From an archaeon (GTDB lineage Archaea; Iainarchaeota; Iainarchaeia; Iainarchaeales; Iainarchaeaceae), in NCBI GenBank assembly GCA_035289625.1, contig DATDWP010000021.1:16053-80052 (forward strand): 64,000 bases of DNA, given 5' to 3'. Numbering within the stretch: the first letter of the stretch is position 1; every line of letters begins with the position of its first letter. The position numbers were made by a program, and so were the translations under genes. Under the pieces are notes generated by a model that was not told where the DNA came from, made no database searches, and saw nothing but the letters and a program-made list of their open reading frames with translations. Positions 1,660 to 38,623 of this stretch are shown here, in pieces.

Positions 1660-1731
1660 CCCAGGCCTTGGCGATTGCCTATAACAAGAGATTTAAAGAA
1701 TTTGCCACTCAAAACATTTAGGTGAAAGAAC

Positions 1732-2808: not shown

Positions 2809-2864
2809 AACAGGCCTTTGGAAAGTTCGGTTTTGTTAGTATATTCACTCCCAAATCGTAAATT

Positions 2865-4442
2865 TTAGTGCTTGACCGCAACTTCCTCAATTGCCCCATC
2901 ACTAACATTTAGCATTCGCTGCGCTATTTTGTGAATAAAATACCTATCATGAGAGACAGCTAAAATCGCGCCATCATATCGCAGAAATGCATCCTCAATA
3001 ATTTCGCGCGCATCAACATCCAAATGGTTTGTTGGTTCATCTAGCAAGAGCAAATTCGGTTTGTCAATTAGAATTTTTAGCAAATTGAGCCTTGATTTTT
3101 CACCCATTGACAATTTTGAAATTGGTTTATAGACCTCATCGTCTGAAATAAACCCAACCATTGAAAGATGCTGGCGTGTCTTTGCTAAATCTTTTAAGAG
3201 CGCGTAAATTTCAGCATATAAAGTTACATCACTCGTCAGATCTTTTAACTCCTGATCAGCATACCCAACCTTAGCTTGGTGGTCAAAATTTATTGTACCC
3301 GAAAGCGGCTTTAATCTCCCTTCAATTGTTTTGAGAAAAGTACTCTTGCCAATCCCGTTCTCCCCCACTAAAATAATACGCTGGCCTGTTCCAATATTTA
3401 GGTTGATATCTGAAATAAGAGGTTTAGTGTAGCCAACATCAAGATGTTCAATTTCCAAAACAACACTTGAACGGATTGGAGATGCTTCAAAACGCGTATC
3501 GAATTTTGATTGGTCCATATCAGGCTTTTCAACAACCGCACGCTTTTCTAAAAGCCGCTCCCTGTATTTTCCCTGAGTAACTTTTTGCGGGCTTTTTCCG
3601 ATGCGCGCAATCTTATCCCTCTCATTTGCAAGGTATTCGTTTTCATTTTCGTATGCGGTTTTTTGCGCCTCAAAAGTAGCATTGCGCGCCTTCACATACG
3701 CTGAATAATTCCCATTGTACTTTATCCATTTCCCATTCTCCATTTTTATTATGGTGTCGCAGATCCTATCCAAAAAATAGCGGTCGTGCGTGACCATTAG
3801 AATAGTCCCTTTGAAGCCTTTCAAATATTTTTCCAAAATATCAAGCCGCTTAAAATCCAAATGGTTTGTTGGTTCATCCAGGAGCAAAAAGGCGGCATCA
3901 GAGCACAAAATCTGAGCAAGGGCAATAATTGCCCTCTGGCCGGTTGAGAGTTGCCCAACTTTTTGAGAAAGCCAGGAAGGCTCGATTTCAAGGGTTTGCA
4001 AAACCTCTTTTATTTTACTTGCCTTGCGCGGACTTTTAGGACTTGAAATCTTTGATTGCAGCTCAATAAAACGCTCAGTTAATTTAGTAACTAGGGCATT
4101 ATTTTGGTAAATAAGAGGGTCAGCTAGCTGCTTTTCAATATCTTTAAATTCATCTTCTAACGGCCCGTGGTGGTATGATGTTGCATTCTCCAAAAGGGTT
4201 TGCTCAACGGTTTTTTCTTTGCCCAGATCAATTTCTTGGGAAAAATAAGCAGCTTTACCATCATATTCTATTTCCCCCGTATAATCTGCCTTGCCTAAAA
4301 TTGCCTTGAGAAAAGTTGTTTTCCCCACTCCGTTGCGCCCAATTAACCCCACTTTTGAACCCGTTGCAACCCCAACACTTTGGTCTAGAAGTATCTCCCT
4401 TTTACCGATTGAAATTGAGATATTTTTAATGGAAAGTGCCAT
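2865..4442 (-). CDS. Soluble tandem-NBD ABC ATPase (ABC-F-like), no transmembrane domain
   Basis: Two Walker A motifs (GRNGVGKTT and GENGIGKST), two ABC signatures (LSTGQRAI and LSMGEKSRL) and two Walker B motifs (LLLDEPTNHLD). 525 aa. Confidence 0.75.
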   Translation of the reverse strand: MALSIKNISISIGKREILLDQSVGVATGSKVGLIGRNGVGKTTFLKAILGKADYTGEIEYDGKAAYFSQEIDLGKEKTVEQTLLENATSYHHGPLEDEFKDIEKQLADPLIYQNNALVTKLTERFIELQSKISSPKSPRKASKIKEVLQTLEIEPSWLSQKVGQLSTGQRAIIALAQILCSDAAFLLLDEPTNHLDFKRLDILEKYLKGFKGTILMVTHDRYFLDRICDTIIKMENGKWIKYNGNYSAYVKARNATFEAQKTAYENENEYLANERDKIARIGKSPQKVTQGKYRERLLEKRAVVEKPDMDQSKFDTRFEASPIRSSVVLEIEHLDVGYTKPLISDINLNIGTGQRIILVGENGIGKSTFLKTIEGRLKPLSGTINFDHQAKVGYADQELKDLTSDVTLYAEIYALLKDLAKTRQHLSMVGFISDDEVYKPISKLSMGEKSRLNLLKILIDKPNLLLLDEPTNHLDVDAREIIEDAFLRYDGAILAVSHDRYFIHKIAQRMLNVSDGAIEEVAVKH

Positions 4443-4572
4443 ATAGAAATAACCATCCCAATCATTTAAAATCCTGCCAATATGTTTGGAATTCCACTGC
4501 TCCAGAGGCTTTTGATTTGAACTGAAGGCTTTATAAAATAATTAAAAATCTACTATATTAAGAGGCATAAAA

Positions 4573-4926
4573 ATGAAAATCGTAGAAGAGTTCTCGGAAT
4601 TTTTGAAAAAATACCAAGTGCTAGGGCTTGCGGTTGCATTCATAATTGGCGCAGCCTCAACTAAACTTGTAACCGCGCTTGTAAATGACATTATAATGCC
4701 GCTTGTCGGAATTGCAATACCTAACGGAGACTGGAGAAGCCTAACACTGCCTGTAGGAAACGCGCAACTATTAGTAGGGGACTTTTTAGGGGCACTTGTT
4801 GATTTTGTAATAATTGCAATTGTGGTCTTTGGAGTCGTAAAATTTATAATGAAGGAACACTCTGCAGAGAAGCGCCGGGATACGAAATATTCTAGAAAGC
4901 CTAAAGGCCAAATAGCGTTACAATAA
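4573..4926 (+). CDS. mscL: Large-conductance mechanosensitive channel MscL
   Basis: 117 aa. The N-terminal amphipathic helix plus TM1 (LKKYQVLGLAVAFIIGAASTKLVTALVNDIIMPLVG) is typical of MscL, followed by a second TM and a charged tail. Confidence 0.7.
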   Translation: MKIVEEFSEFLKKYQVLGLAVAFIIGAASTKLVTALVNDIIMPLVGIAIPNGDWRSLTLPVGNAQLLVGDFLGALVDFVIIAIVVFGVVKFIMKEHSAEKRRDTKYSRKPKGQIALQ

Positions 4927-5107
4927 GCAAGTTGAGTTGCCTAACCCCAAAATGACGTCTTTTGTTTTGGATGCCTGAATGCAGGCCTCTAAAAGCCCAC
5001 AAATGGCAAAACCAGGACAGATCTTTTATTTGGCCTCCACAATTGTACAACACAGCGGCAAATTGAGGCCAAGCGGCATTTTTTGATTTGAACAAGGAAC
5101 GCTTATT

Positions 5108-7036
5108 TTACCCGCGCTTATAAATCGTAACTTGCGGGTTTTCAAAAACCTTTGCAAGGGAGGGGTCGGAATCGAGGGAATTGTTGCCAATTAGTTTTTC
5201 ATACTCCCCAACCCAAACAAAATCAATCCTTGCCGGAGGGTTTTGCGGGTCTGAATTTTCATATATTGAAATTATCCGCATGGCCGCTTCATGCGAGTAG
5301 AAGAAAATATTCCCCTCTTTTCCGTTTTCCCTAATTTCTTTCTGCACATCCTGCGGCCAGGAGGCAATCTGATCTTCAAACTTCTTTTCTGACCAGACAC
5401 CGGTTGCGTGATAGAGGAAATGGAACGGGAAATTTGCCGCAAGCGCTTTTTCATGCAATAGCAAATCCTGTTCACTTGCAACAGGCCCAGTTACAGAATG
5501 AATGCTAAGAGTATCTTTTTGCGGAGTAAACAGCCAATTGATTGTATCTTTTCTAACTCCAAAAAATTTGTAGGCAAAACCCACACGCTTCTCTATTTCA
5601 CCATTTTTTGCAGAAGTAAGAAAGCCATTTGGGTAGAATACATAAAGCCCGGTATCGGCACTTATCCGAGAATTTGTCTGGGCGCTAAGTGCGAGCACAA
5701 CATCTTCTTTTGAGGAATTTTCCTCAAGCCATTCAAGGGCCTGGCGCTGCTGCGGGGAAATTGTATATGCGGCGCAGCCGCTTTGAGCGCAACGAAGCTC
5801 AGTGTAGTGGAATTGCGTTACTAGCCCTAAGAAAAGTGCGGCAAGAAGCAAAATTGCCCACGCACTATTTTTGATTTGATCTGGAACTGTAATTTTTGGA
5901 AAGGCAACTTTCAGAGAACCGGCTTTCCATAGGGCAAAAAGGGAAACCAAGAAAATTAGCGACATTTGATCGGCAACCTGGTTTTGCCAGTGCAATACTG
6001 CAAGATTCACCCCGAAAACTACCTGCAAATTCATCCCGACAACTGACCCTAAAAGGATGCCGGCAAGCAAAACCCTTTGCATATCCCATTTTTTTATAAG
6101 AAAATATGCCCCCGCTAAAAGGGCAAGGTATTTGAGGGTGGGGACTGTATAATAGGGGCGGCTTACCTCCCCAAAACCTAAGCGAAGAACCAAATCACCG
6201 GAAAGACCTGAAAAAGCATTTAGGGCAAGATTTGCAAGGTATGGAAGGGCCACAATTGCTGCAGTTGCAAAAATAAGAATTGAGTGCAGTGGCAATGATT
6301 TTAGAATATTTCCAGCCCCCGCTTTTTTTGAATTCCATTCATATAAAAGCACAATAAATAGCCCTGCAAAAAATGCAACGTAGTAAAAGTAGACGTAAAC
6401 TAAAAGCCCTGCAAAAAAGCCCGCAACAACCGCATCTTTTGCCTTTTTTGTTTCAAATGACTTTAAGGTAAAATAAATCGCCAGCAAAAAGAACGGAAGT
6501 GTTGCTATCGGGGAATGGAACCTATCTATGAAAAGGTATGTCGAGGACAGAAGTTTTGAAATATTTACCAAAAGTTCTGGTATCCAGGGACTGAAGAGAT
6601 CAAAAATATTCGGAAAGAGGGTAAAGAGCGCGCTTATTGCAATGCGATTGCCATTGCCTTTTACCCACAGGCCAAACAATAACCATGACAGCAAAAAAAT
6701 CGCAACCGCCCCGGCAAATTTCATTATTATTATCCAATAATTGCCGACAAGCGAATATAGTGCCCCTGCAATAAGGAATGGAAGCCACTCACGCGAGGGA
6801 ATGGTTTTGGATAGTTCGAAGACCTGGGGCTCGGTTACCCAACCGTGCAAAGAAACATGCTTTACAATGGCCGAATACATTGTAAAATCAAGAGTGCGTA
6901 TTGTTGGGCTAAAATAGTGGAATGGGTAAAACTGCTCCCCAGCGAGCGCCATCACAAGAACATCCGAGAGAACTATTATCGCTGCAAGTGAAAATGCGCA
7001 AAGCACCAAAATTACTTTCCAGCCCCTACCTTTCAC
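5108..7036 (-). CDS. Polytopic membrane protein (about 12 predicted TM helices) with a ~200-aa C-terminal soluble domain; candidate GT-C-type glycosyltransferase or glycan-processing membrane enzyme
   Basis: 642 aa. Hydrophobic segments run through the first ~430 aa and are followed by a hydrophilic tail. It is the last gene of the minus-strand glyco-operon. The function is inferred from architecture only. Confidence 0.45.
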   Translation of the reverse strand: MKGRGWKVILVLCAFSLAAIIVLSDVLVMALAGEQFYPFHYFSPTIRTLDFTMYSAIVKHVSLHGWVTEPQVFELSKTIPSREWLPFLIAGALYSLVGNYWIIIMKFAGAVAIFLLSWLLFGLWVKGNGNRIAISALFTLFPNIFDLFSPWIPELLVNISKLLSSTYLFIDRFHSPIATLPFFLLAIYFTLKSFETKKAKDAVVAGFFAGLLVYVYFYYVAFFAGLFIVLLYEWNSKKAGAGNILKSLPLHSILIFATAAIVALPYLANLALNAFSGLSGDLVLRLGFGEVSRPYYTVPTLKYLALLAGAYFLIKKWDMQRVLLAGILLGSVVGMNLQVVFGVNLAVLHWQNQVADQMSLIFLVSLFALWKAGSLKVAFPKITVPDQIKNSAWAILLLAALFLGLVTQFHYTELRCAQSGCAAYTISPQQRQALEWLEENSSKEDVVLALSAQTNSRISADTGLYVFYPNGFLTSAKNGEIEKRVGFAYKFFGVRKDTINWLFTPQKDTLSIHSVTGPVASEQDLLLHEKALAANFPFHFLYHATGVWSEKKFEDQIASWPQDVQKEIRENGKEGNIFFYSHEAAMRIISIYENSDPQNPPARIDFVWVGEYEKLIGNNSLDSDPSLAKVFENPQVTIYKRG

Positions 7037-7053
7037 CTAAATTCACCTAATTT

Positions 7054-7710
7054 TCAAACTCCAATATTTTGCAAAATATTTCCCAAAGCCCTCTTATTTG
7101 CGCCAAAAACAAACTTTAAGCCTGATTTTTTTGCGCAGGCCCTATCATCCAAATCCCCCACAAAAACAACATCACCTCTTTTGCACCCAAGCCTTTTCAG
7201 GGCAAGTTTTATTATACGCCCATCCGGTTTTTCCCTTCCGGCCTCTTCTGAAGTTATCACAAAATCAACTAAATGCGCTATTCCTAAAGAAAGGCACTTT
7301 TCGAGCTGTATTTGGGTTGTGAGGTTGGTTACAATCGCAACTTTGAGGCCTGCGCGTTTGCAGCCCGATAGGAATTTTTTCATTTCTTTGGTTATTTTCA
7401 TTTTTGAAAAATAAGCCCTCCAGAATTGCCTTTCCAGACCCAAAGTAAATTTTACATTTGTTCGCCCTTCAAAAATTTCAACTGCCCTTTTAATATACAA
7501 CAGGCGCGAATGAGAAGCTGCCTGGCCTTTTGTATTTGCCTTTATTTGAGATCTTGCGGATTCATAAATTTTTTCCGCCCTCTTTTTCCCGACCCCGTAC
7601 TTTTTTGAAAGGGCAAAAATTACTTTTTTGGAAGCAAAATTATTGCACACGCGATAGCCATACAACGTATCATCAAGATCTAGCAGGATTGCGCGAATCA
7701 TCCGCTCCAC
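7054..7710 (-). CDS. HAD-superfamily hydrolase/phosphatase
   Basis: N-terminal HAD motif I ILLDLDDTLY and C-terminal VGDLDD (motif IV-like). 218 aa. Confidence 0.7.
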   Translation of the reverse strand: MERMIRAILLDLDDTLYGYRVCNNFASKKVIFALSKKYGVGKKRAEKIYESARSQIKANTKGQAASHSRLLYIKRAVEIFEGRTNVKFTLGLERQFWRAYFSKMKITKEMKKFLSGCKRAGLKVAIVTNLTTQIQLEKCLSLGIAHLVDFVITSEEAGREKPDGRIIKLALKRLGCKRGDVVFVGDLDDRACAKKSGLKFVFGANKRALGNILQNIGV

Positions 7711-8300
7711 CTATCTGTTAGCCCTTTCGAACACATTATAGCGTCAATGTGAATTTTATTTTTCTCCAGGTATTTTTTATATTTTTCAATTTTCTGCGGC
7801 TGGCCCCATCTCTCAGGGCTTACCAGGAAAATCTTAAACCCCGCGCGCCTTATTTTTTTATAGGCATTTTTTGTGAGGGGGAGCTTTGTAAAAGTATCAA
7901 CCCAAACCCAATTGACTTTCCCTTTTAACGCAAGCGAATTTTCAAGTGTCTCAAATTCCGAGAAACGCACCGCAATGTTTTTCTCCCCCTTGGCCAAAAG
8001 TTTTAAAATTGCCGGAAAAGTAATGTCCAAGAAAAAATAATCCCTTATCCCGTGCCTTTTAACAATATCAAGGACCTCGTTTTCAATCCCCTCGGTCTTT
8101 ACATTAAGAAGCATAAATTTGTGCTTATAATTTGCACAATAGTCCTCAAATAAATCCCCGTTTTCAAACGGGTCGTGGTGCAGAATTAATTTTTTGCCAT
8201 CGTTGCGTATATCTATTTCAACGCCCAACTCGTGCGGAATTGTAAGCAGCTCCCCTATGGTATTTACCGCATGCACAACCATTATTGGCTTTTTTTCCAT
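7698..8300 (-). CDS. Glycerophosphodiester phosphodiesterase (GDPD)/PI-PLC-like TIM-barrel protein (tentative)
   Basis: VVHAVNTIGEL...GVEIDIRNDGKKLILHHDPF resembles the GDPD H..N.. / E.D.. / HD motif series. 200 aa. The start may be the internal Met at 8282. Confidence 0.4.
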   Translation of the reverse strand: MEKKPIMVVHAVNTIGELLTIPHELGVEIDIRNDGKKLILHHDPFENGDLFEDYCANYKHKFMLLNVKTEGIENEVLDIVKRHGIRDYFFLDITFPAILKLLAKGEKNIAVRFSEFETLENSLALKGKVNWVWVDTFTKLPLTKNAYKKIRRAGFKIFLVSPERWGQPQKIEKYKKYLEKNKIHIDAIMCSKGLTDRWSG

Positions 8301-10531
8301 AAATGCGCCCTCAAGTTTAATGTAAAATCAATTGTCCTTTTAATGAATCGCATCCTTGACCCAAGCCCCAAATTCCAGCTCGATTTTCCGAACTTCCGAG
8401 CGCCAAATGCAACAGGGAAGCGAATTATTTTAAGGCCGGCCTCTTTTGCCTTATAGAGCGCATATAGATCAAAAGAGAAATCATCCGGGCCATCTAAAAT
8501 ATGTGGCAAAAAAGATGAGTGGAAAAGATTTGGCTGCGCATTAATATCCTCCAGCCATCTCCCAAGCACCATGCTGCAAAATACTGACATCCCAAAAGAG
8601 AAAAAAGAATCCGAAAAACCCCTCCCTAACCTTCTCCCTTTGACAAAAACATTTCCCCCTCTTGCTTTTGCGATTTCAAATGCCCTGAAAACATCTTGCG
8701 GATCTGCCTGCAAATCTGCATGTGTCCAGCACAAGAACTTTCCCCCCGCCTTGTCCAGCCCTTTTTTTACCCCATTTCCATACCCAATATTGGAAGCAAC
8801 ATCAACTTTTTTTATAAAATTGTATTTGCTGAAACAAAGCCGTTCGAGCACTTGTGCACTCTTATCGGTCGAACCGTTATTTACAAGTATTAATTCAAAA
8901 TTTCCCTTGTGAAACCGCGAGAATTTTTCCGCAAGCAGCGGCAAATTTTTTTCCTCATTATAGCACGGAATTACAACAGAAAGCCCCACTAGCCCAAAAT
9001 ACTTCTGCCAATACTCATATGTGTTCAGATCATCCGGTGTTCCCAAAACAACATATTTTTCAACTTCAAAAACCTTCACTTTTCCCCCCTTTTCAATTAA
9101 TTCATTTGGCACGGCATCTGCATAAAACTCATTATTTATGCTTCTTCCCTTTACAATCATTTCCTTAGCGCTATCAAAAAAATCCCCGGCTTTTTTGTAA
9201 TAAAATATCCCGCAAACAGCATGGTCTTGGGTTGGATTTTTGGATATTGGGATTTTGCAAAAAACCCATTCAACACCATTCCCTTTTGCCGTCTTTACCC
9301 ACCCATACGCTTCCGGTTTCCTTCTGACCGCAGCATTATTCCTGAATGTCCAAATAATAGAACCAACTCCCTTTTCCTTAACCGCGCTTAGGAGTTTTTT
9401 GCCGCTAAACAGCACTTTATTGTCGCACGCCGCAATAAGAAGCGCGGAATTTTTATCAATAAAATTTTGTGCAAGAAGGCAGGTTGACGCCTGCCCTGTT
9501 GTTGGCTTTTGAGCAACCACTATTTTTGCGCGGGGGAAATATTTTTTGATTTCTGAATCTACTGAAAATTTTTCCACATGCTCTTTTGAGCAGACAAAAA
9601 CATGCTCATCACATTGCGGCAACGATTCTAGCGCATGAACAAACATGGGTTTTCCAAAAATATCTATAAGCGGCTTTGCCTCTTTATATCCGGCATCGGC
9701 AAATCTCTTTCCGGCCCCTGCCATTGGAATCAGAAGAGTTGTTTTGGGCGGCATTTTTACAAGATTTGTTTTTTTGCTTTGCGCAAAATATTCCGACCAA
9801 TAAATGTACTCCTCAAGATCTGACGGTGTGCCCCACTGCAGAAAATGCCTGACATCATAAACAAAAATACGCTTTCTGTCCCGCAGCAAGAGCCCATAAA
9901 CCGAACTCACATAATACTCACCGTTAACAGAAAGCCCGCTTTCCATAAGTCCTGAAAAATATTTTTTCAAAAGGGCGCCTGATGAAAAGAAATATGTGCC
10001 CGCTGAATGGTAGGATTTTGTCAAATCCTGCGTAAATGAGTGCTTTTCACGAATTTCGAGCAACTGCTTATTCGCATCAACCCTCATTCCCGCATACTTG
10101 TTTGGCCAGGTTAGATGCGGATGAAATGAACTATATCCGGTAATGCCACCGTCCCATTTGCCTGAAATGGCCTTTTTTACAAACGCCGCATAATCCCATG
10201 TCGCAAAAAAATCGCAATAATTCACGAGTACCGGCTCGTCATCTTTTATATGCAAGGCCGCCTGCATAACCGCATACACCGGCCCGAATTTGTGCTTTTC
10301 AATCCCTACTATTTTCCCGCGGGGGGACGATGCCAAGAGCACTTTTTTTAGCGGGGTTTTTTCCAAATGCTCTTTATTGCATATGAAAATGAAATCCTCC
10401 TCTTTTGGGAACATCCCGATTACATGCTCAATGATCGGCTTTCCGTCAACCTCAATGAGGGGCTTTATTTCCCTATACCCCCCATCCCTGAACCTTTTCC
10501 CTTCCCCCGACATTGGAATTACGATCTGCAT
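8282..10531 (-). CDS. Fusion protein: two sugar-phosphate nucleotidyltransferase-like domains plus a C-terminal family-2 glycosyltransferase
   Basis: NT-domain 1 IVIPMSGEGKRF, NT-domain 2 LLIPMAGAGKRFADAGYKEAKPL, then GT2 LSVVIPCYNEEKNLPLLAEKF...ELILVNNGSTDKS. 749 aa. Confidence 0.65.
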   Translation of the reverse strand: MQIVIPMSGEGKRFRDGGYREIKPLIEVDGKPIIEHVIGMFPKEEDFIFICNKEHLEKTPLKKVLLASSPRGKIVGIEKHKFGPVYAVMQAALHIKDDEPVLVNYCDFFATWDYAAFVKKAISGKWDGGITGYSSFHPHLTWPNKYAGMRVDANKQLLEIREKHSFTQDLTKSYHSAGTYFFSSGALLKKYFSGLMESGLSVNGEYYVSSVYGLLLRDRKRIFVYDVRHFLQWGTPSDLEEYIYWSEYFAQSKKTNLVKMPPKTTLLIPMAGAGKRFADAGYKEAKPLIDIFGKPMFVHALESLPQCDEHVFVCSKEHVEKFSVDSEIKKYFPRAKIVVAQKPTTGQASTCLLAQNFIDKNSALLIAACDNKVLFSGKKLLSAVKEKGVGSIIWTFRNNAAVRRKPEAYGWVKTAKGNGVEWVFCKIPISKNPTQDHAVCGIFYYKKAGDFFDSAKEMIVKGRSINNEFYADAVPNELIEKGGKVKVFEVEKYVVLGTPDDLNTYEYWQKYFGLVGLSVVIPCYNEEKNLPLLAEKFSRFHKGNFELILVNNGSTDKSAQVLERLCFSKYNFIKKVDVASNIGYGNGVKKGLDKAGGKFLCWTHADLQADPQDVFRAFEIAKARGGNVFVKGRRLGRGFSDSFFSFGMSVFCSMVLGRWLEDINAQPNLFHSSFLPHILDGPDDFSFDLYALYKAKEAGLKIIRFPVAFGARKFGKSSWNLGLGSRMRFIKRTIDFTLNLRAHLWKKSQ

Positions 10532-10533
10532 CC

Positions 10534-11490
10534 CTAAACCCCTTTTCTAAAGCTTTCAGATTCCATGCCCCTTAATTCGTTTACATTGTTTTTTGTCAAA
10601 AACTTTGGCCTGCCGTACTGCTCGATATTTAGAAGAACGCATAAATGCGCCAGGAAAACTTCAAGGACTTTGTTTCTTTTTTCCCCTGATTTTTCCAGTA
10701 TTTTAATTTTTGAGTCATTTACAATTTCTATATTCTGATTTTCCCCCGAAAAATTGCAATACACTGCGCAATCCGGGAACATATAGTCGGAAAAACCGTT
10801 TTTTAGATTCGCCAGCCCCTCAATAAAATAAATTCCGCCTGTCTTGCCCTCAACTTTCAAATTCTGCGGCAAGTAGAGAGCCACTCCTCTTGATTGCAGG
10901 TATCGCCCTGCAATTCCATCAAGTTCAATGGTTTTTTGGACAGATTCACCCATTTTATTGCACGAAACTATCAGGCCATGATTTTCAAGAATAAAAACGC
11001 CGCTCTTTCTTTTCCGCTCTTTTTCAAAAACAGCCACCGAGAGTTCAACCCCTGGAGTTTTGTATCCAACCCATTCAAAATCCGCATTTCCTAATGCATC
11101 TTTTGCAATATTTTGTGAATTTTGCGCGCAGCTAACGGAATTTATCAAAACAGAATGCGTATGCACAACAGAATTCCCCAGAACGGAATGGAACCCGGTT
11201 TCCATTGAAGCCACCTCATTCCCCTTTGTGCTTTTGCCAATAATTTCCGTGTAATTTTTTTCATTTGCAATGGAACTGTTTTCTGAAGCGCTTTTTAGAA
11301 ATGCACTGACTTTATTAAAATCCACATCTGCAATTCCCCCCTTCTCTGAAACATCTGCAAGGGTTATCCCTGACGCTTTAATGAGCATCCTGGATTTGTC
11401 TTTTATGGAAATATTTCCCCCGCCGGCCTGGACAAGATCTGGCCTTGAGCCGATTTTGCCGCAAGCATCCACTAGCTCTTTAGTTTGCAT
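10534..11490 (-). CDS. Class II aldolase/adducin-family protein (fuculose-1-P aldolase / ribulose-5-P 4-epimerase-like) with a ~100-aa C-terminal extension
   Basis: GGGNISIK, a metal-ligand His cluster (GFHS...VVHTHS) and ILENHGLIV. 318 aa. Confidence 0.6.
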   Translation of the reverse strand: MQTKELVDACGKIGSRPDLVQAGGGNISIKDKSRMLIKASGITLADVSEKGGIADVDFNKVSAFLKSASENSSIANEKNYTEIIGKSTKGNEVASMETGFHSVLGNSVVHTHSVLINSVSCAQNSQNIAKDALGNADFEWVGYKTPGVELSVAVFEKERKRKSGVFILENHGLIVSCNKMGESVQKTIELDGIAGRYLQSRGVALYLPQNLKVEGKTGGIYFIEGLANLKNGFSDYMFPDCAVYCNFSGENQNIEIVNDSKIKILEKSGEKRNKVLEVFLAHLCVLLNIEQYGRPKFLTKNNVNELRGMESESFRKGV

Positions 11491-13957
11491 TCTCTTCCCC
11501 TTTCCTTGCCTTCAGGCTCTCTGAAATCACCCAAAGGATCACTAATTGCACTGCCCCGTCAAGATCCTTTCTCCATACAACAGACCTGTTTTCAAGCACC
11601 TCTTCAAGGTTGGGAACAAGCAAATACGCAATTTCTGCCGCCTGCTCACTAGCCATCTTTCCGCTAAGCGTAATGTTTATAGTCCTCAGATCGCTATTGT
11701 AGTCCATGCCGGCGTTCATTTCTGTGCGCACATTCAGCGCCTCGACAAGTGCAGAGACATCAAATTTATTGTCAAGTGACAAAACAAGCATGAGACCATT
11801 CCCTTTTGGAATATAGCTCACTACGATATCTGCAAATCTCTTTTGAGGAGCAAGGAATGCTTTTGCGTCTTTCCCCCTCTTTTTCATGGACGCAATTACA
11901 TTTGAGGCCGAATATCCCCTCTCGGTTACATCGCGCTGTATTTTCCAGCTCTTTCTAAGGGATGGATGGGGATCCATGAATATCTTAATATCAAGCAGTT
12001 GCCTCATTTTTGTCAGATAAAATGAATGAAGGCCTGAGGCTATTATGAATTTTTTTGGCCAGACATATTTTTCCTTTGTAAATTTTCCCGTTGAATGGTC
12101 ATATTCACGGCGCATCAGCTTTTTTGAACCCTCAAGCGCCTCTATGGATTCGATGTCTTTGTGGAGAAAATTCCCGACCGGATTTAGATGGGTCAGGGTT
12201 TGCCAGTTTTTACTGCCCCTTTCCCATTTGTGCAAATCGTCCCCTTCCAGGAAAGTGATGTTATCTTGCCCAACAAGATCTGCAATAATAGAATTAGTGT
12301 AGCTCTTGCCGCTGCCAGAATCCCCGGATATTCCAATCGCCACCATGGATTTTTTATAGCGCAAATTTGCAATTATCCCGAATTTATACACAAAGTAAAT
12401 ATTTACAATCATAATTCCAATTAGAAGTGTCAGCGCAAAATTTGAGATGAACTGCGCATTAAGGCCAAATGCCTCAAAGATCGAGTACAGGTTTGGGAGG
12501 GTTGAAAACCCGCTAAACAAGGGCTGCAAAGAACCAGGCAGGTCCGCATCTTTACCCAAAAATAGGAAATAGAGCAAAAATAGGGCATTTATGCCCCAAT
12601 AAATCTTTTTTGAAATATTGTCATCCTTTACAAAAAAGTATGCAAGGAAAGGAATTACCCAAAAAAACCACCCTGGCCTTGCAGGAACCAATGTTATAAG
12701 TATTGTAAACACACCCGCAAATGCCATCATAAGCGCGTCTTGGTTAATATTTCTAAAATATGCAAGGCGCAGGAAAAAGAGGAACAAAACAAGGGGCACA
12801 ACAAAAATCACAAGGCCTGTTTGCCCAAATGGTATTTGCAGCAAGAATGCCAGCCACTGTTCTTCCGCGCCCAAAACAAGCTTTTGGTACCCTTGGGAAA
12901 AAATGAACGGCAGGATCAAAACCGCATATGCCCCTATTGCTACTGCAAAGTAGCTGATTGTTTTGCCTGCCAATTCCCTATTGCGCCATAAATACAGGAA
13001 AATGAAAGGGGCCGCAACAAAAATATTTGCCTTCGCGCTAAGAGCAATGCCCAGAACAAGTGCAGACGGGAGATATTTTTTATTTAGGAGCAGGTATACT
13101 GAAAGCAGGAGGAGGAAAATTGGGATCGCGTCCAACTGGCCGTGAAAATAACTTATATATAGTATTATTGGAGAGCACCAATAATACAGAAGAACAAGAT
13201 GCTCCTTTGTTTTTAGCAGTTTGATGAGGATATAGAATATCCCAATATCGGCAAGAAGCAGCGGGGCTTTTGCAAAAAAGAGCTGCAAAAAGCCATTTGA
13301 AAATATCGAAGGCGGAAGAAATGAGAAAAGAAAAGCCGGAAATGATACGGCAAGCAGCATTGTTGTTGAGTACGGAAAAGCCTTGAGTTCGCCCAGTTCA
13401 AAAAAGTGCTGGTAGGGGTTGGAAAAACCGGAAGAGACAAAGTAGTCAATGAATGGGATTGTCCCTTTCAAAATAAAATCCGAGCCGAAGAGAAATGAAA
13501 AAATTATTTTGACCAAAAGCACGGCGATAAAGAGGCGGCTGTGAAAAACTGGCGGCAAACTGATCTTGCGGAAGACCAAAAACTTTGAACCCAAAAAATT
13601 TGTCACGGTGGTTATTGCAATGGCCATGGCGTTTGCGGCAACTGCAACTATTCCAAAAGATTCCACAAGCATTTTTAGAAGGCTGAGGCCAAAAAAAAGC
13701 GAGAAAGTGTAAACCAGGAAATACTTTACAAGCTCTGCAAACTTTTCACCATTTGAGCCAAAAGTAAATTTTTTGTTCAGGCTAAAACCAAAAAGAACCC
13801 CCGCAAAGTAACCAACAGAGGCTGAGAGCAAATAATCAAGACCTGCAAAGTAAAGAAGAAGTATAAAAAGCGAGTAATTCAATATGGTTGAACCTAGGCC
13901 AACAACCGCAAACCGGAGGAACTCTGAACTCACCCCGCCAGACATAAAAAAAACCAA
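11480..13957 (-). CDS. Three-part fusion: N-terminal GtrA-like segment, polytopic membrane domain (GT-C/DUF2029-like), C-terminal P-loop nucleoside/sugar kinase domain (uridine kinase / phosphoribulokinase family)
   Basis: The N-terminus LRFAVVGLGSTILNYSLFILLLYFAGLDYLLSASVGYFAGVLFGFSLNKKFTFGS is GtrA-like. About 10 further TM segments follow. The C-terminus has a Walker A GISGDSGSGKS and a kinase-like core. 825 aa. Confidence 0.55.
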   Translation of the reverse strand: MVFFMSGGVSSEFLRFAVVGLGSTILNYSLFILLLYFAGLDYLLSASVGYFAGVLFGFSLNKKFTFGSNGEKFAELVKYFLVYTFSLFFGLSLLKMLVESFGIVAVAANAMAIAITTVTNFLGSKFLVFRKISLPPVFHSRLFIAVLLVKIIFSFLFGSDFILKGTIPFIDYFVSSGFSNPYQHFFELGELKAFPYSTTMLLAVSFPAFLFSFLPPSIFSNGFLQLFFAKAPLLLADIGIFYILIKLLKTKEHLVLLYYWCSPIILYISYFHGQLDAIPIFLLLLSVYLLLNKKYLPSALVLGIALSAKANIFVAAPFIFLYLWRNRELAGKTISYFAVAIGAYAVLILPFIFSQGYQKLVLGAEEQWLAFLLQIPFGQTGLVIFVVPLVLFLFFLRLAYFRNINQDALMMAFAGVFTILITLVPARPGWFFWVIPFLAYFFVKDDNISKKIYWGINALFLLYFLFLGKDADLPGSLQPLFSGFSTLPNLYSIFEAFGLNAQFISNFALTLLIGIMIVNIYFVYKFGIIANLRYKKSMVAIGISGDSGSGKSYTNSIIADLVGQDNITFLEGDDLHKWERGSKNWQTLTHLNPVGNFLHKDIESIEALEGSKKLMRREYDHSTGKFTKEKYVWPKKFIIASGLHSFYLTKMRQLLDIKIFMDPHPSLRKSWKIQRDVTERGYSASNVIASMKKRGKDAKAFLAPQKRFADIVVSYIPKGNGLMLVLSLDNKFDVSALVEALNVRTEMNAGMDYNSDLRTINITLSGKMASEQAAEIAYLLVPNLEEVLENRSVVWRKDLDGAVQLVILWVISESLKARKGEENAN

Positions 13958-14229
13958 AAACCCTGTTTTTAGATATAGTGCTGGTTAAGGCTTATTAACC
14001 ATTCCAAAAATCGAATTTAAACCCCTTGACTTTGCAAAAAAAACAAGCCCCGGCTACCATTGAAGACGCCCCAAAGGCCATTTAGCCCCAAAATCCATTG
14101 ACTTGACAATATGCCTCATTTTCGGCTTCCCTAGGTTTGACTGACTAGAGGCGATTTGATAAATGTTGAAAATAATATTTTCAATCAGCCACAACCCAGC
14201 CCCAAACTTTTAATTACCTACCAAGCCAA

Positions 14230-15240
14230 TTGTACTATATGAAATTTGCCAAATCCGCCGATTCTTTCAGGGTTGAAGAACTGATGCACCCTAACCTTTT
14301 GGGCGGAAATTACTTCTATTACATTTTGGAAAAACACGGCATTGATTCAGCCAGCGCAATAAAGGCCCTTGAAAAGCAAAACAAAGCCCGCATCCACTAC
14401 TCTGGGCTAAAGGATGCAAACGCCGCCACATCACAGTGGATATGCTCACTAAAAGAGCTCAAAGAAACAGACGACAAGAGAGTACAATTAACATACGCCG
14501 GAAACGGGGAGAACAGGATACATGTGGGGATGCACAGCGCAAACAGGTTCATTGCAAAGCTTAGCGATCTTACGTTGGAAGAGAAAAAATTCCTCAAAAA
14601 GGGACTGCACAAAATCACCCTGCCGAATTATTTTGACGAGCAAAGATTTAATGAAAAAACCCTCCGGTTAGGAAGTGCCCTGCGTTCGGGACAATTCGAG
14701 ATGGCATTAAAAACTGCACTAACAGAAAAACTCGGCATGGAATCTGAAAAATCCCATAAAATAAAGGCAGAAATAAAAGAGAAGTGGGGCAAGTGGGACG
14801 AATTAATCAAATCGGAGACAATTCCTAGAAGCAAAAAAGCAATTTTTGAACATTTACAAAAAGGCGCAAACTTTCGGCAGGCAATAGAACTGCTTGAAAA
14901 AAAGACGGTTGCAATAGCATGCAGGGCAATACAGTCACTTGAATTCAACACTGAACTTTCCGCGCAGATATCAAAGCACAAAAACAGCCCTCAAAAATCC
15001 ATCCAAATAGCAAACAGCACCTACCCAATAGAATTCAGGAAAAGGGCGGTGAAAAGGCAAATTGAGATCAGCGAAGTGTACCCTTCAAAAGTAAAGCTTG
15101 TGAGAAAGACATTTTTTGAACTAAAAAAACCAATTGTAAAATTTTCAGGCAACGATTGCACCCTTGAATTTTTCCTAAAAAAAGGGTCCTACGGAACAAT
15201 TACAATAAAGTGCATCATCGCCCTATGTGAAAACAAATAG
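14230..15240 (+). CDS. truD: tRNA pseudouridine synthase, TruD/Pus7 family
   Basis: Catalytic motif IHYSGLKDANAATSQW (G.KD..A.T.Q) and downstream NYFDEQRF (N.FG.QRFG-like). 336 aa. Confidence 0.6.
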   Translation: MYYMKFAKSADSFRVEELMHPNLLGGNYFYYILEKHGIDSASAIKALEKQNKARIHYSGLKDANAATSQWICSLKELKETDDKRVQLTYAGNGENRIHVGMHSANRFIAKLSDLTLEEKKFLKKGLHKITLPNYFDEQRFNEKTLRLGSALRSGQFEMALKTALTEKLGMESEKSHKIKAEIKEKWGKWDELIKSETIPRSKKAIFEHLQKGANFRQAIELLEKKTVAIACRAIQSLEFNTELSAQISKHKNSPQKSIQIANSTYPIEFRKRAVKRQIEISEVYPSKVKLVRKTFFELKKPIVKFSGNDCTLEFFLKKGSYGTITIKCIIALCENK

Positions 15241-18883: not shown

Positions 18884-20008
18884 ATGACAGAAAAAGAGCA
18901 AAAAACGCCAAAAAAGAGCATCGAACAAAAAAAGGCCGAATTTTTACACCCGGCAGCTTCCCCGAAATCACAGCAGCAATTCCCAATCCATCTAATAGGA
19001 ATGCTCCTAATACTCGGATTATTGATAGGGGCAGCGCTCACCCTGATAGTTTTCAACCCTAAAAACGGAAACGGGGACGATACAAACAGCATAAACGATG
19101 TGGAGTACCGCACAGTGCCAATTACAATGCTCTACTCAGATCAATGCAATGGATGCTCACAAACAAACACTTTTGAAGAGCTCTTTTTGGTGAGAAATAT
19201 CCCCTACAAACTTGAAAAAGTAGAGGCAAGTTCAGAAGAGGGCAAAGAACTCATAGAAAAATACTCAATACAAACCGTGCCCACGGCAATAATTGATGCC
19301 AAAAAAATAGAATTCTACCCCACAACAAAAAACAATTTTGATAATGTTCTTGAAAAAATAAGCGGGGCATACATAGCCCCTGAACTAAACCTTGATGCAA
19401 AAACATACCACCCGGTCTACTATCTTGAAAAAATTCCTGGATACTGCGATGCAAACAAGCCCACAGTTCTGCAGTTTGATGATTACTATACTCCTCAAAA
19501 TAATTCTGCAAGGCCTCTGCTATACGAATTCATTGCAGATTTTAACACAAGCACTGAACTTAAATATGTATTTGCCCAGAGCATATCACAAGACGAGAAT
19601 GCGGTTTTAGGAAACCTCTTTTTAACCTGCGCTTCAAATCAACAAAAATACCCAGAACTCGAATACAAAATCACCGGGATCTACTGCAACAACCCTTTCA
19701 AGGGCGACCCTGAAGTTGCGACAAGCTCTGAAATTAAAGGGTGCAGGACAATTAGCGAACACTATTCAAAACCCCTCACACAAATAGAGCTAGACATTGC
19801 CGCTGCAAGGGCAAAACTTGACCTAAACAAGCTTGCAGCATGCATTGCAACAAAAGAGACCATTTACAACAATGCAAAAAAACTTATAGAAGAGATCGGG
19901 ATAAATCGCACAGGCACATTCCTGATAAATTGCCAGGAAACAGCAAGCATTGACACACTACGCGATTCATTTTGCAAAATAAACCCGCAAGCGTGCAAGC
20001 GATCTTGA
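18884..20008 (+). CDS. Membrane-anchored thioredoxin-fold protein with CxxC motif (DsbA-like, tentative)
   Basis: TM anchor LIGMLLILGLLIGAALTLIVF then LYSDQCNGCSQ (CxxC). Several further Cys in the C-terminal half. 374 aa. Confidence 0.4.
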   Translation: MTEKEQKTPKKSIEQKKAEFLHPAASPKSQQQFPIHLIGMLLILGLLIGAALTLIVFNPKNGNGDDTNSINDVEYRTVPITMLYSDQCNGCSQTNTFEELFLVRNIPYKLEKVEASSEEGKELIEKYSIQTVPTAIIDAKKIEFYPTTKNNFDNVLEKISGAYIAPELNLDAKTYHPVYYLEKIPGYCDANKPTVLQFDDYYTPQNNSARPLLYEFIADFNTSTELKYVFAQSISQDENAVLGNLFLTCASNQQKYPELEYKITGIYCNNPFKGDPEVATSSEIKGCRTISEHYSKPLTQIELDIAAARAKLDLNKLAACIATKETIYNNAKKLIEEIGINRTGTFLINCQETASIDTLRDSFCKINPQACKRS

Positions 20009-33183: not shown

Positions 33184-33233
33184 ACGTTCCCTCTATTCGC
33201 AACAATTAAAATTTGCTTCTATCACGAGGACTT

Positions 33234-38614: not shown

Positions 38615-38623
38615 TAATAAAAG

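What the first reader, a model, noticed from the sequence alone, without database searches (positions are those of the whole stretch)
11480..13957. 825-aa GtrA-like + polytopic + P-loop kinase fusion protein
A GtrA-type segment (normally a ~120-aa stand-alone protein) forms the N-terminus of a protein that continues through about 10 more TM helices and ends in a soluble kinase domain with Walker A GISGDSGSGKS and a PRK/uridine-kinase-like core. A lipid-linked-sugar handling module physically coupled to a nucleotide or sugar kinase is unusual. It could couple cytoplasmic substrate phosphorylation to membrane translocation.
Basis: seen in the sequence. Interest (0 to 1): 0.6.

Follow-up and report, generated by a model that had tools for sequence, protein, structure and literature searches.

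The report
Glycosyltransferase fused to a phosphoribulokinase
This real and widely conserved membrane protein joins a lipid-sugar "flippase-like" module, a surface glycosyltransferase and a Calvin-cycle-type phosphoribulokinase in one chain, and it sits in a conserved gene cassette that probably builds an unknown pentose-derived cell-surface sugar in many uncultured archaea and bacteria.

The parts
11480..13957 (-). 825-aa GtrA + GT-C + PRK fusion gene (probable true start is the ATG at 13945, giving 821 aa; stop codon 11480-11482)
   Evidence: ORF; domains; AF2 model pLDDT 91.4, pTM 0.88; NCBI HLC79742.1
13562..13957 (-). GtrA-type four-helix module (aa 1-132)
12353..13552 (-). GT-C glycosyltransferase module (aa 136-535). 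Family-invariant residues: P168, F169, F194-P195, D237, H272-G273, D276, K309, E366, G429-W430, W433, P436
11483..12352 (-). Complete class-II phosphoribulokinase-fold domain (aa 536-825), predicted cytoplasmic
12302..12334 (-). Walker A / P-loop GISGDSGSGKS (aa 542-552)
   Evidence: Sequence; G545, S547, G550 and K551 invariant in 39/39 sequences
10534..11490 (-). Class-II (FucA-type) ketose-1-phosphate aldolase-like gene, 318 aa; its start overlaps the end of the fusion gene by 11 nt
   Evidence: Pfam Aldolase_II E 6.9e-17. Profile against PDB: 3m4r 3.6e-24, FucA-type 7e-14. Invariant E97, H110, H112, H171. Present next to the fusion in 47/49 loci, and fused to PRK in L062 and P0093
8282..10531 (-). 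749-aa protein with two sugar-phosphate nucleotidyltransferase domains plus a GT2 polyprenyl-phosphate glycosyltransferase-type domain
   Evidence: Pfam and NCBIfam. The GT2 part is nearest to ArnC (9.9e-11), GtrB sll0501 (1.2e-10) and PfDPMS (5.2e-10). NTP domains. NTP-transferases in 48/49 and a GT2 in 44/49 loci
7698..8300 (-). u200: unannotated 200-aa TIM-barrel protein, GDPD/PLC-like by fold
   Evidence: No Pfam or NCBIfam hit. 1,164 homologues, all named 'hypothetical'. AF2 pLDDT 95.8. Foldseek: P. furiosus GDPD 7e0v E 3.1e-6, TM on query 0.72. Present in 45/49 loci
7054..7710 (-). HAD-family phosphatase closest to ribulose-1,5-bisphosphate 5-phosphatase
   Evidence: NCBIfam NF053830 E 2.3e-51, 174.7 bits, below the 330-bit cut-off. 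The same model is the best hit for six orthologues from distant taxa, 146-200 bits. Present in 40/49 loci
5108..7036 (-). u642: polytopic membrane protein with a C-terminal soluble domain; last gene of the operon; a lineage-specific accessory
   Evidence: Same synteny in L001/L002. Detected only in the closest relatives. No family hit. Unrelated to the large membrane proteins in the L041 and L031 cassettes

Best explanation
The protein is the membrane hub of a Gtr-type (GtrA / GT2 / GT-C) lipid-linked glycosylation system that carries its own sugar-supply pathway. Shown: the N-terminal four-helix GtrA module, the central GT-C fold of the Dol-P-sugar-using ALG6/PIG-M/PimE class, and a complete PRK-fold kinase with conserved catalytic and sugar-phosphate-cleft residues. 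Also shown: the obligate GT-C-PRK fusion, and its tight, cross-domain linkage to a FucA-type aldolase-fold enzyme, two nucleotidyltransferases, an ArnC/GtrB/DPMS-type GT2, a GDPD-like barrel and a RuBP-5-phosphatase-like HAD. Inferred: on the cytoplasmic face the kinase phosphorylates C1 of ribulose-5-phosphate or a close pentulose-5-phosphate to give a 1,5-bisphosphate. The HAD then removes the 5-phosphate to give a pentulose-1-phosphate. The aldolase-fold enzyme and the TIM barrel remodel this intermediate, and the nucleotidyltransferases activate it. The GT2 loads the sugar onto polyprenyl or dolichyl phosphate, and the GtrA module flips the lipid-linked sugar or docks the GT2. The GT-C module finally transfers the sugar to a cell-surface acceptor outside. 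Fusing the first and last enzymes would keep the pathway at the membrane and in fixed stoichiometry. The identities of the sugar and the acceptor are not known.
For: Domains and fold. The fusion is conserved: 39 full-length homologues; 270 loci in species-level genomes; a GT-C-only search gives 205 representative clusters at E<=1e-30; and of the 184 family proteins collected carry PRK, while nearly all of the other 25 are truncated fragments. PRK is fused in 49/49 loci with full flanks. Kinase competence: 60 of 180 gapless positions are identical to the cyanobacterial PRK 9qko, including 19 of the 20 family-invariant kinase residues. The residues equivalent to T. elongatus PRK Arg50, Lys142, Asp146 and Arg164 (named as active-site residues in PMC6800369) are R580, K672, D676 and R694, invariant or 38/39. 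Pathway context in 49 well-flanked loci: AldII 47, NTP-transferases 48, GT2 44, u200 45, HAD 40, almost all on the same strand. Genes in the window overlap or abut. AldII is fused to the PRK C-terminus in P0093 and L062. The HAD is closest to the biochemically characterised, RuBP-specific 5-phosphatase family in the window and in six distant orthologues (enzyme described in PMC9700705). AldII is closest to ketose-1-phosphate aldolases, with an intact Zn/Glu site. The GT2 is closest to the three solved polyprenyl-phosphate sugar synthases. A stand-alone GtrA gene abuts or overlaps the GT-C-PRK gene in 16 bacterial loci. The three-component model and the flippase or anchor roles of GtrA come from PMC7389260. 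Positive-inside analysis places both ends of the GT-C module and the kinase in the cytoplasm, and H272/D276, E366 and W430/W433 outside (inference).
Against: No biochemical data exist for any member. The HAD (146-200 bits against a 330-bit cut-off) and the aldolase (29.6 bits against 300 for the Ru1P-aldolase model) are relatives, not equivalogs, of the haloarchaeal enzymes. A ketose-1-phosphate is not an anomeric phosphate, so the step from pentulose-1-P to a GT2-competent NDP-sugar is unexplained. The need for two nucleotidyltransferases and for the GDPD-like barrel has no established precedent. In the query's own clade the Glu of the 'EGL' motif is Ser (17/39); I recall this Glu as a Mg-binding residue in the PRK/uridine-kinase fold, so the change could reduce activity. 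The usual GT-C catalytic Asp in the first outer loop is not conserved (D160 in 19/39). GtrA was not detected within 8 kb in 26/49 loci. Model coordinates and PAE were not available, so domain contacts and active-site geometry were not inspected.
Confidence: 0.5

Rival explanations
1. The kinase, HAD and aldolase form a catabolic-type shunt (Ru5P to RuBP to Ru1P to DHAP + glycolaldehyde, as in haloarchaea). Its C3 or C2 product is activated by one nucleotidyltransferase as a CDP-alcohol-phosphate and attached as a phosphodiester decoration, with the GDPD-like barrel handling that phosphodiester. The second nucleotidyltransferase, GT2, GtrA and GT-C would glycosylate with an ordinary sugar.
For: The HAD is closest to RuBP 5-phosphatase. 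AldII is closest to true aldolases of the FucA type, and no epimerase- or dehydratase-named entry was found. Two apparently intact nucleotidyltransferase domains imply two activation steps. u200 is closest in fold to glycerophosphodiester phosphodiesterases. The pathway precedent is PMC9700705.
Against: DHAP is a ubiquitous metabolite, so organisms such as Flavobacteriaceae should not need a dedicated ATP-consuming route to it. The cassette contains no reductase to make glycerol phosphate. This reading does not explain why the kinase is always fused to the GT-C.
Confidence: 0.15
2. The kinase acts on a membrane-bound substrate. It would phosphorylate the polyprenol carrier or a hydroxyl of the lipid-linked sugar on the cytoplasmic face, which would explain why it is always tethered to the membrane enzyme.
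For: The fusion to GT-C is obligate (82 of 83 loci, the exception being truncated; 49/49 well-flanked) while all other pathway enzymes are separate or variably fused. The pTM of 0.88 suggests a fixed orientation of the kinase on the membrane domain.
Against: The sugar-phosphate cleft residues of soluble PRKs are retained almost completely. I know of no PRK/uridine-kinase family member with a lipid substrate (own knowledge). The co-conserved RuBP-phosphatase-like HAD, the aldolase and the AldII-PRK fusions point to a soluble pentulose phosphate.
Confidence: 0.12
3. The PRK domain is mainly a regulatory nucleotide or sugar-phosphate sensor, or a dimerisation module, that gates or dimerises the GT-C enzyme rather than a pathway enzyme. 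This would apply especially to the Ser-641 clade that includes the query.
For: Glu is replaced by Ser, Cys or Thr at aa 641 in 20/39 sequences. Class-II PRKs dimerise through their C-terminal sheet (PMC6800369), and that lobe is retained.
Against: All other catalytic and substrate-cleft residues remain invariant, including in the Ser clade. That conservation is hard to explain without catalysis.
Confidence: 0.1
4. It is a bona fide phosphoribulokinase that supplies RuBP to a form-III RuBisCO (CBB-like or nucleotide-salvage carbon metabolism) and merely happens to be membrane-anchored.
For: The sequence and fold are closest to authentic PRKs, including the archaeal M. hungatei enzyme. DPANN surveys list PRK as a CBB enzyme (PMC8091004).
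Against: The domain is always fused to a glycosyltransferase and embedded in a glycan cassette. It is found in Flavobacteriaceae, Rickettsiales and many CPR lineages, groups I do not associate with RuBisCO-based metabolism (own knowledge). None of the cassette genes examined in the window operon, L001-L004 or L041 is a RuBisCO. The co-conserved HAD would destroy RuBP.
Confidence: 0.07
5. It is a sequencing or assembly artefact that joins separate genes.
For: In some bacteria GtrA is a separate, overlapping ORF, so a one-base error could in principle fuse the two.
Against: The identical three-module architecture occurs in 24 proteins from independent assemblies at 37-66% identity. The model is confident across the junctions. 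The same contig was recovered in several sources.
Confidence: 0.01

Closest known systems
Three-component Gtr-type glycosylation systems (GtrA/GtrB/GtrC of Shigella phages; GtcA/CsbB/YfhO of Firmicutes; ArnC/ArnEF/ArnT)
   Same: A GtrA-family four-helix protein, a cytoplasmic GT2 that makes a polyprenyl-phosphate sugar, and a polytopic GT-C enzyme that transfers it outside are all encoded together (model from PMC7389260).
   Different: GtrA and GT-C are covalently fused here. The GT-C always carries a C-terminal PRK domain. Five further soluble enzymes co-travel with it. The system is not phage-borne. The GT-C is of the ALG6/PIG-M/PimE structural class rather than close to ArnT or PMT-type enzymes.
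Class-II phosphoribulokinase (cyanobacterial, plant and archaeal; PDB 9qko, 6hzk, 6gve, 5b3f)
   Different: The domain is membrane-tethered to a glycosyltransferase. It scores below the NCBIfam PRK07429 cut-off (184.8 against 236). It has no redox cysteine (Cys19 corresponds to S549). The NH of 'YNH' is DH, and Glu641 is Ser in this clade. The context is glycan biosynthesis, not carbon fixation.
Non-carboxylating pentose bisphosphate pathway of haloarchaea (RuBP 5-phosphatase + Ru1P aldolase; PMC9700705)
   Same: A HAD enzyme closest to the RuBP-specific 5-phosphatase and a FucA-family enzyme are encoded side by side with an enzyme able to make RuBP.
   Different: RuBP would come from a PRK rather than from R1P kinase plus R15P isomerase. 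Both enzymes score well below the equivalog cut-offs. The aldolase has an extra conserved C-terminal domain of about 120 aa. The context is biosynthetic and membrane-linked, not nucleoside catabolism.
Archaeal dolichyl-phosphate mannose synthase (P. furiosus DPMS, 5mlz)
   Same: A GtrA-like four-helix bundle is covalently attached to an enzyme of lipid-linked sugar metabolism. The bundle superposes at 1.6 A rmsd, and the cassette GT2 is related to the DPMS catalytic domain.
   Different: In DPMS the bundle is fused to the GT2 synthase. Here it is fused to the consuming GT-C transferase, and the GT2 is fused to two nucleotidyltransferases.
Mycobacterial Rv3789 (GtrA) with AftA and the decaprenyl-phospho-arabinose pathway
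   Same: A GtrA protein is proposed to recruit a GT-C pentofuranosyltransferase (PMC7389260). From my own knowledge, that donor sugar originates from a phosphorylated pentose.
   Different: From my own knowledge, DPA is made from PRPP by a UbiA-type transferase and an epimerase. None of those enzymes was found among the cassette genes examined here, and no PRK is involved there.

Membership tests
GtrA family (Pfam PF04138) | Match to the family HMM above the gathering score | tested here: met
   78.9 bits against a 26.1 cut-off, aa 15-129 covering profile positions 1-117 of 117
GtrA family (Pfam PF04138) | Compact four-transmembrane-helix bundle | tested here: met
GtrA family (Pfam PF04138) | Translocation of polyprenyl-phosphate sugars (proposed function) | not testable with these tools
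   Still only proposed even for characterised members (PMC7389260)
GT-C glycosyltransferases, ALG6/PIG-M/ALG3/PimE structural class | Polytopic GT-C fold | tested here: met
GT-C glycosyltransferases, ALG6/PIG-M/ALG3/PimE structural class | Membership of an existing sequence family (GT87, GT57, GT50 or similar) | tested here: inconclusive
   The query has no Pfam hit in aa 130-540. Relatives reach GT87 at 26-29 bits (cut-off 25) or fall below the cut-offs for Alg6_Alg8 and PMT_2. This is probably a separate GT-C family.
GT-C glycosyltransferases, ALG6/PIG-M/ALG3/PimE structural class | Conserved acidic catalytic residue in the first extracytoplasmic loop | tested here: not met
   D160 is present in only 19/39 sequences and D171 in 10/39. 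The invariant acids are D237, D276 and E366 elsewhere. Geometry could not be checked without coordinates.
GT-C glycosyltransferases, ALG6/PIG-M/ALG3/PimE structural class | Uses a polyprenyl-monophosphate sugar donor | not testable with these tools
   Supported only by context: an ArnC/GtrB/DPMS-type GT2 and GtrA in the same operon
Class-II phosphoribulokinase | Full-length PRK fold including the C-terminal lobe | tested here: met
Class-II phosphoribulokinase | P-loop and active-site cleft residues (TePRK Arg50, Lys142, Asp146, Arg164) | tested here: met
   These map to R580, K672, D676 and R694, invariant or 38/39. 19 of the 20 family-invariant kinase residues are identical in 9qko.
Class-II phosphoribulokinase | Score above the curated NCBIfam PRK07429 cut-off | tested here: not met
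   184.8 bits against 236; only model positions 5-188 of 326 align
Class-II phosphoribulokinase | Glu of the 'EGL' motif after the central strand (recalled as Mg-binding) | tested here: not met
   Ser641 in the query and in 17/39 sequences; Glu in 19/39
Class-II phosphoribulokinase | Ru5P to RuBP activity | not testable with these tools
   Requires an enzyme assay
Uridine/cytidine kinase | Closest similarity to, and equivalog score for, Udk | tested here: not met
   Udk models score 66-74.5 bits against cut-offs of 180-220. PDB UCKs reach about E 1e-11 against 1e-36 for PRKs. Only about 185 columns align.
Gtr-type three-component glycosylation system | GtrA + polyprenyl-phosphate GT2 + GT-C encoded together | tested here: met
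   All three lie in one operon in the window. A GT2 is present in 44/49 loci; GtrA is fused or nearby in 23/49.
Haloarchaeal non-carboxylating pentose bisphosphate pathway | RuBP 5-phosphatase equivalog | tested here: inconclusive
   It is the best NCBIfam hit in 7 of 7 cassette HADs (146-200 bits) but below the 330-bit cut-off
Haloarchaeal non-carboxylating pentose bisphosphate pathway | Ru1P aldolase equivalog | tested here: not met
   29.6 bits against a 300-bit cut-off. The protein belongs to the FucA-type fold with an intact metal site.
Haloarchaeal non-carboxylating pentose bisphosphate pathway | R1P kinase and R15P isomerase as the source of RuBP | tested here: not met
   No such genes occur among the operon genes annotated. 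A PRK domain takes that place.

The most novel reading that the evidence does not exclude
Ribulose-1,5-bisphosphate would be an intermediate of a previously unknown nucleotide-sugar pathway. A PRK and a RuBP 5-phosphatase move the phosphate from C5 to C1 of a pentulose. A first nucleotidyltransferase makes an NMP-phospho-1-pentulose. The GDPD/PLC-like barrel uses the neighbouring anomeric 2-OH to form a 1,2-cyclic phosphate and opens it to the anomeric 2-phosphate. The second nucleotidyltransferase then makes a true NDP-ketopentose. The GT2 loads this onto polyprenyl phosphate, and a new GT-C family transfers a ribulo- or xylulo-furanosyl residue to the cell surface of CPR bacteria, DPANN archaea, flavobacteria and Rickettsiales. 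This reading would account for every conserved cassette member, including the two nucleotidyltransferases and the phosphodiesterase-like barrel. No direct evidence supports it.
Probability: 0.1. Interest if true: 0.9.

Novelty: new variant of a known kind. Interest (0 to 1): 0.7.

Why it matters
A Calvin-cycle signature enzyme turns out to be a fixed part of a membrane glycosyltransferase in at least 270 species-level genomes. Many of these are CPR bacteria and DPANN archaea, whose cell surfaces and host interactions are poorly understood. Three consequences would follow if the reading is right.

- It predicts a new sugar-activation route through RuBP and Ru1P, and a new GT-C family. Both are directly testable because cultured flavobacteria (Eudoraea, Zeaxanthinibacter, Geojedonia) carry the cassette.
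- It assigns a working context to a 1,164-member family of "hypothetical" TIM-barrel proteins.
- It warns that PRK hits in metagenome surveys, which are used as markers of CBB or RuBisCO metabolism (for example PMC8091004), may instead be these glycosylation fusions.

Tried and rejected
- **Frameshift or assembly artefact:** rejected because of conserved full-length homologues and a confident model across the junctions.
- **Uridine kinase (the JGI name):** rejected on E-values, cut-offs and the length of the structural alignment.
- **Phage-borne Gtr cassette:** tblastn against 50,697 phage records found only a 19% P-loop fragment.
- **Literature:** seven full-text searches found no description of the fusion, the cassette or any ketopentose-glycan pathway that uses such enzymes.
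- **Sequence-level link of u200 to GDPD:** the profile search of PDB gave only chance hits, and Pfam at E<=10 found nothing. The link therefore rests on Foldseek plus an H/R, E-x-D, H pattern that I recognised from memory.
- **Large unannotated membrane proteins in three cassettes (window u642, L041 690 aa, L031 650 aa):** they show no detectable similarity to each other and are not core components.
- **Simple 19-residue hydropathy scan:** it mis-segmented the helices, so topology was derived from the model's helices plus the positive-inside rule. The stretch at aa 198-221 cannot be assigned as a full crossing without coordinates.
- **Fused versus separate NTP1/NTP2 counts:** unreliable because the two paralogous domains cross-hit, so they were not used.
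- **Exact look-up with the TTG start:** failed; it succeeded with the ATG start.

Full report
**1.

An uninterrupted ORF runs from 13957 to 11480 on the minus strand, 825 codons from a TTG. Public annotation starts it four codons later, at the ATG at 13945. The exact 821-aa product is NCBI HLC79742.1, "MAG TPA: GtrA family protein [archaeon]", seen on contigs up to 273,784 bp.

Pfam places GtrA_DPMS_TM at aa 15-129 (E 4.6e-22) and the PRK/uridine-kinase family at aa 541-718 (E 3.7e-31). It finds nothing in between. The Walker A motif GISGDSGSGKS is at aa 542-552.

The window comes from an archaeon. It has intron-containing tRNAs, TruD, GatE, an archaeal-type ProRS and an ATP-dependent DNA ligase. 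The nearest relatives of the fusion are labelled Woesearchaeota or "archaeon".

**2. The fusion is not an artefact**

A search of 5.8 billion proteins returned 39 homologues. About 22 of them carry GtrA + polytopic region + PRK at 37-66% identity over 97-99% of the query. The rest are roughly 700-aa proteins with the polytopic region and PRK only.

A one-genome-per-species scan found 270 loci. They come from DPANN archaea (Woese-, Aenigm-, Iain- and Micrarchaeia) and many CPR/Patescibacteria lineages. They also come from Flavobacteriaceae, including cultured Eudoraea adriatica, Geojedonia litorea and Zeaxanthinibacter enoshimensis. Rickettsiales, gammaproteobacterial MAGs, a spirochaete symbiont, Melainabacteria and Omnitrophota are represented as well.

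**3. What the three parts are**

Foldseek aligns 304-320 columns with PRKs but only about 185 with uridine-cytidine kinases. The last 110 residues are therefore the PRK-specific C-terminal lobe, not an extra domain.

At sequence level PRKs score about E 1e-36 and uridine kinases about 1e-11. The Udk equivalog models are far below their cut-offs. The "uridine kinase" label that JGI gives to relatives is therefore not supported.

The middle region is a GT-C glycosyltransferase of the structural class whose solved members use polyprenyl-monophosphate sugars. At sequence level it only grazes GT87, Alg6_Alg8 and PMT_2, plus a precomputed MptA_B family hit in a relative. It is probably a GT-C family of its own.

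**4. Is the kinase competent?**

The alignment to 9qko is gapless over 180 residues with 60 identities. Of the 20 kinase positions invariant in the family, 19 are identical in that authentic PRK.

PMC6800369 names T. elongatus PRK Arg50, Lys142, Asp146 and Arg164 as active-site residues. Through the equal-length alignment they map to R580, K672, D676 and R694. These are invariant or present in 38/39 sequences.

The three loops that paper describes as forming the cleft correspond to aa 573-593, 617-628 and 667-694. Most of the family's invariant kinase residues lie there.

There are two departures. The redox cysteine of plant-type PRK is a serine (S549). The Glu of the "EGL" motif, which I recall as Mg-binding in this fold, is Ser in the query and in its whole clade. 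Across the alignment that position is Ser in 17, Glu in 19, Cys in 2 and Thr in 1 of 39 sequences. Everything else stays invariant in that clade, so I consider the domain catalytic, with this caveat.

**5. The conserved unit is GT-C + PRK**

I searched 1.84 billion representative proteins with the polytopic region alone. That gave 1,036 hits, 205 of them at E<=1e-30. Of the 184 family proteins then in hand:

| Architecture | Count |
|---|---|
| GT-C + PRK | 134 |
| GtrA + GT-C + PRK | 24 |
| GT-C + PRK + class-II aldolase (P0093, 1,058 aa) | 1 |
| No detectable PRK | 25 |

Nearly all of the 25 without PRK are fragments ending inside the GT-C module. Two may be real exceptions: P0070 (423 aa) and P0162 (685 aa, with a different C-terminus).

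Across 83 genomic loci, GT-C and PRK share one ORF in 82; the exception is truncated by a contig end. GtrA is more variable. It is fused in 15 loci and is a separate ORF abutting or overlapping the GT-C-PRK ORF (-58 to +4 nt) in 16. In 10 loci it lies further away, and in 42 it was not detected within the flank.

**6. The gene heads a conserved cassette**

In the window six genes on the minus strand overlap or abut from 13957 to 5108:

- the fusion gene;
- a 318-aa class-II aldolase-fold protein;
- a 749-aa protein with two nucleotidyltransferase domains and a GT2 domain;
- an unannotated 200-aa protein (u200);
- a HAD hydrolase;
- a 642-aa polytopic protein.

The same order is found at 59% and 37% identity. 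A bacterial 3-Mb contig has stand-alone GtrA, GT-C-PRK and GT2 genes.

Counts in the 49 loci with at least 5 kb on both sides:

| Cassette gene | Loci (of 49) |
|---|---|
| Aldolase-fold gene | 47 |
| Nucleotidyltransferases | 48 |
| GT2 | 44 |
| u200 | 45 |
| HAD | 40 |

Almost all of these lie on the same strand as the fusion gene. The 642-aa protein occurs only in the closest relatives. It is unrelated to the large membrane proteins in other cassettes.

**7. What the partners say about chemistry**

- **GT2.** Its nearest solved relatives are ArnC, GtrB (sll0501) and archaeal Dol-P-Man synthase (E about 1e-10 to 5e-10). These are the enzymes that load a sugar onto a polyprenyl phosphate. With GtrA and GT-C this makes a three-component system of the kind summarised in PMC7389260. 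That paper also notes the proposal that mycobacterial GtrA Rv3789 recruits the GT-C enzyme AftA, which parallels the covalent link seen here.
- **HAD.** Its best NCBIfam hit is the haloarchaeal ribulose-1,5-bisphosphate 5-phosphatase (E 2.3e-51, 174.7 bits). The same is true of six orthologues from Rickettsiales, a gammaproteobacterial MAG, Eudoraea, a Kazan-group bacterium, a Chitinophaga-labelled MAG and another archaeon (146-200 bits, 32-82 bits above the next family). All are below the 330-bit equivalog cut-off. The haloarchaeal enzyme is strictly specific for RuBP and yields Ru1P, which a FucA-like enzyme then cleaves (PMC9700705).
- **Aldolase-fold protein.** It keeps the Glu and three His residues of the FucA metal site (E97, H110, H112, H171) and has glycine-rich motifs that resemble the FucA phosphate site (by eye). 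A family profile ranks an uncharacterised Thermoplasma domain first (3.6e-24), then fuculose-1-phosphate-type aldolases. No AraD-, RhaD- or MtnB-named entry appears. It has a conserved extra C-terminal region ending in "SEKYRQK".
- **u200.** It belongs to a 1,164-member family with no Pfam or NCBIfam model, and every member is named "hypothetical". Its model (pLDDT 95.8) is a TIM barrel. The closest solved folds are glycerophosphodiester phosphodiesterases (E 3.1e-6, TM 0.72), followed by ribulose-phosphate-binding barrels. A profile search found no sequence-level link.

**8. Mechanism proposed**

Shown: the three modules, the obligate GT-C-PRK fusion, the cassette, and the family affinities of each partner.

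Inferred from the model's helices and the positive-inside rule:
- The GtrA module ends in the cytoplasm.
- The GT-C module crosses the membrane an even number of times.
- The kinase is cytoplasmic.
- The invariant H272-G-Q-L-D276, E366 and G429-W-x-x-W433 lie on the outer face.

Inferred pathway:
1. Ru5P (or a close pentulose-5-phosphate) is converted by the PRK domain to the 1,5-bisphosphate.
2. The HAD converts this to the pentulose-1-phosphate.
3. The aldolase-fold enzyme and the barrel remodel it.
4. The nucleotidyltransferases activate it.
5. The GT2 transfers the sugar to polyprenyl phosphate.
6. GtrA flips the lipid-linked sugar or docks the GT2.
7. The GT-C module transfers the sugar to a surface acceptor.

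The chemistry between pentulose-1-phosphate and a GT2-competent donor is unexplained, because a ketose C1 phosphate is not anomeric. So is the need for two nucleotidyltransferases. I give this general reading about 0.5.

**9. Rival explanations and comparison with known systems**

The rivals I considered are:
- a catabolic shunt supplying a C3 or C2 phospho-alcohol decoration (0.15);
- a lipid-directed kinase (0.12);
- a regulatory or dimerisation role (0.10);
- a true PRK feeding RuBisCO (0.07);
- an assembly artefact (0.01).

Compared with known systems, it works like a Gtr/Arn-type three-component system. It adds a fused PRK and a pentulose-bisphosphate branch that resembles the haloarchaeal non-carboxylating pathway. 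The kinase does not reach the curated cut-off for PRK equivalogs. The GT-C lacks a conserved first-loop Asp.

**10. Novelty**

Seven full-text searches found no description of the fusion or the cassette. No phage carries it. Database names cover only single domains. I rate it a new variant of a known kind, with appreciable interest. It places a PRK and probably RuBP in glycan biosynthesis. It defines a probable new GT-C family and gives a large family of hypothetical proteins a context. It is also relevant to the use of PRK as a carbon-fixation marker in DPANN and CPR metagenomics (PMC8091004).

Noticed in passing
window 7698-8300 (-): u200 belongs to a family of at least 1,164 proteins, all named 'hypothetical', with no Pfam or NCBIfam model and about 50% identity between archaea and bacteria. 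Its model is a confident TIM barrel nearest to GDPD. H10, E28, D30, R32 and H42 are invariant.
   Followed up: partly
window 7054-7710 (-); L043, L028, L041, L031, L065, L012: The cassette HAD proteins all have the haloarchaeal RuBP 5-phosphatase model as best NCBIfam hit (146-200 bits, below the 330-bit cut-off). A broad bacterial and archaeal sister group of that recently described enzyme may exist.
   Followed up: partly
window 8282-10531 (-): Two nucleotidyltransferase domains and a GT2 domain are fused in one 749-aa chain here. In relatives they are split into 517 + 236 aa (L001) or three genes (L031).
   Followed up: partly
P0093 (1,058 aa); L062 7929-...: A further fusion places GT-C + PRK + class-II aldolase in one ORF, linking the kinase and aldolase functionally.
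   Followed up: partly
window aa 641 of the fusion (nt 12035-12033, - strand): The Glu of the 'EGL' motif, which I recall as Mg-binding in PRK and uridine kinases, is Ser throughout the Woesearchaeota-type clade (17/39) and Glu in most others (19/39).
   Followed up: partly
window 28697-35788 (-): A bacterial-type nucleotide-excision-repair cluster lies in this archaeal window: UvrC 28697-30304, UvrA 30301-33183 and UvrB 33809-35788, with a 192-aa ORF between UvrA and UvrB.
   Followed up: no
window 38623-38717 (-) and 42581-42700 (-): Two long, apparently intron-containing tRNA genes: tRNA-Pro(GGG) of 95 nt found by ARAGORN, and a 120-nt tRNA found only by Rfam.
   Followed up: no
window 5108-7036 (-): A 642-aa polytopic protein with a C-terminal soluble domain of about 240 aa closes the operon. 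It has no family hit and occurs only in the closest relatives. It could be a second, acceptor-specific membrane enzyme.
   Followed up: partly
window 21489-22793 (-) and 18884-20008 (+): Two sizeable ORFs (434 and 374 aa) have no Pfam hit at E<=1e-5.
   Followed up: no
L041 (Eudoraea adriatica) 1-14292: The flavobacterial cassette additionally holds a 560-aa unknown, a TylF-like O-methyltransferase, a 690-aa unknown membrane protein, a second GT2 and a Bac_transf initiating transferase. This is a surface-polysaccharide locus in a cultured, tractable organism.
   Followed up: partly
L008, L017-L019, L022, L033 (record titles): Several loci whose fusion protein closely resembles the archaeal type (up to 63% identity, GtrA fused) are labelled Peregrinibacteria, Saccharibacteria or Pseudomonadales MAGs. 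This could reflect horizontal transfer or mis-binning.
   Followed up: no
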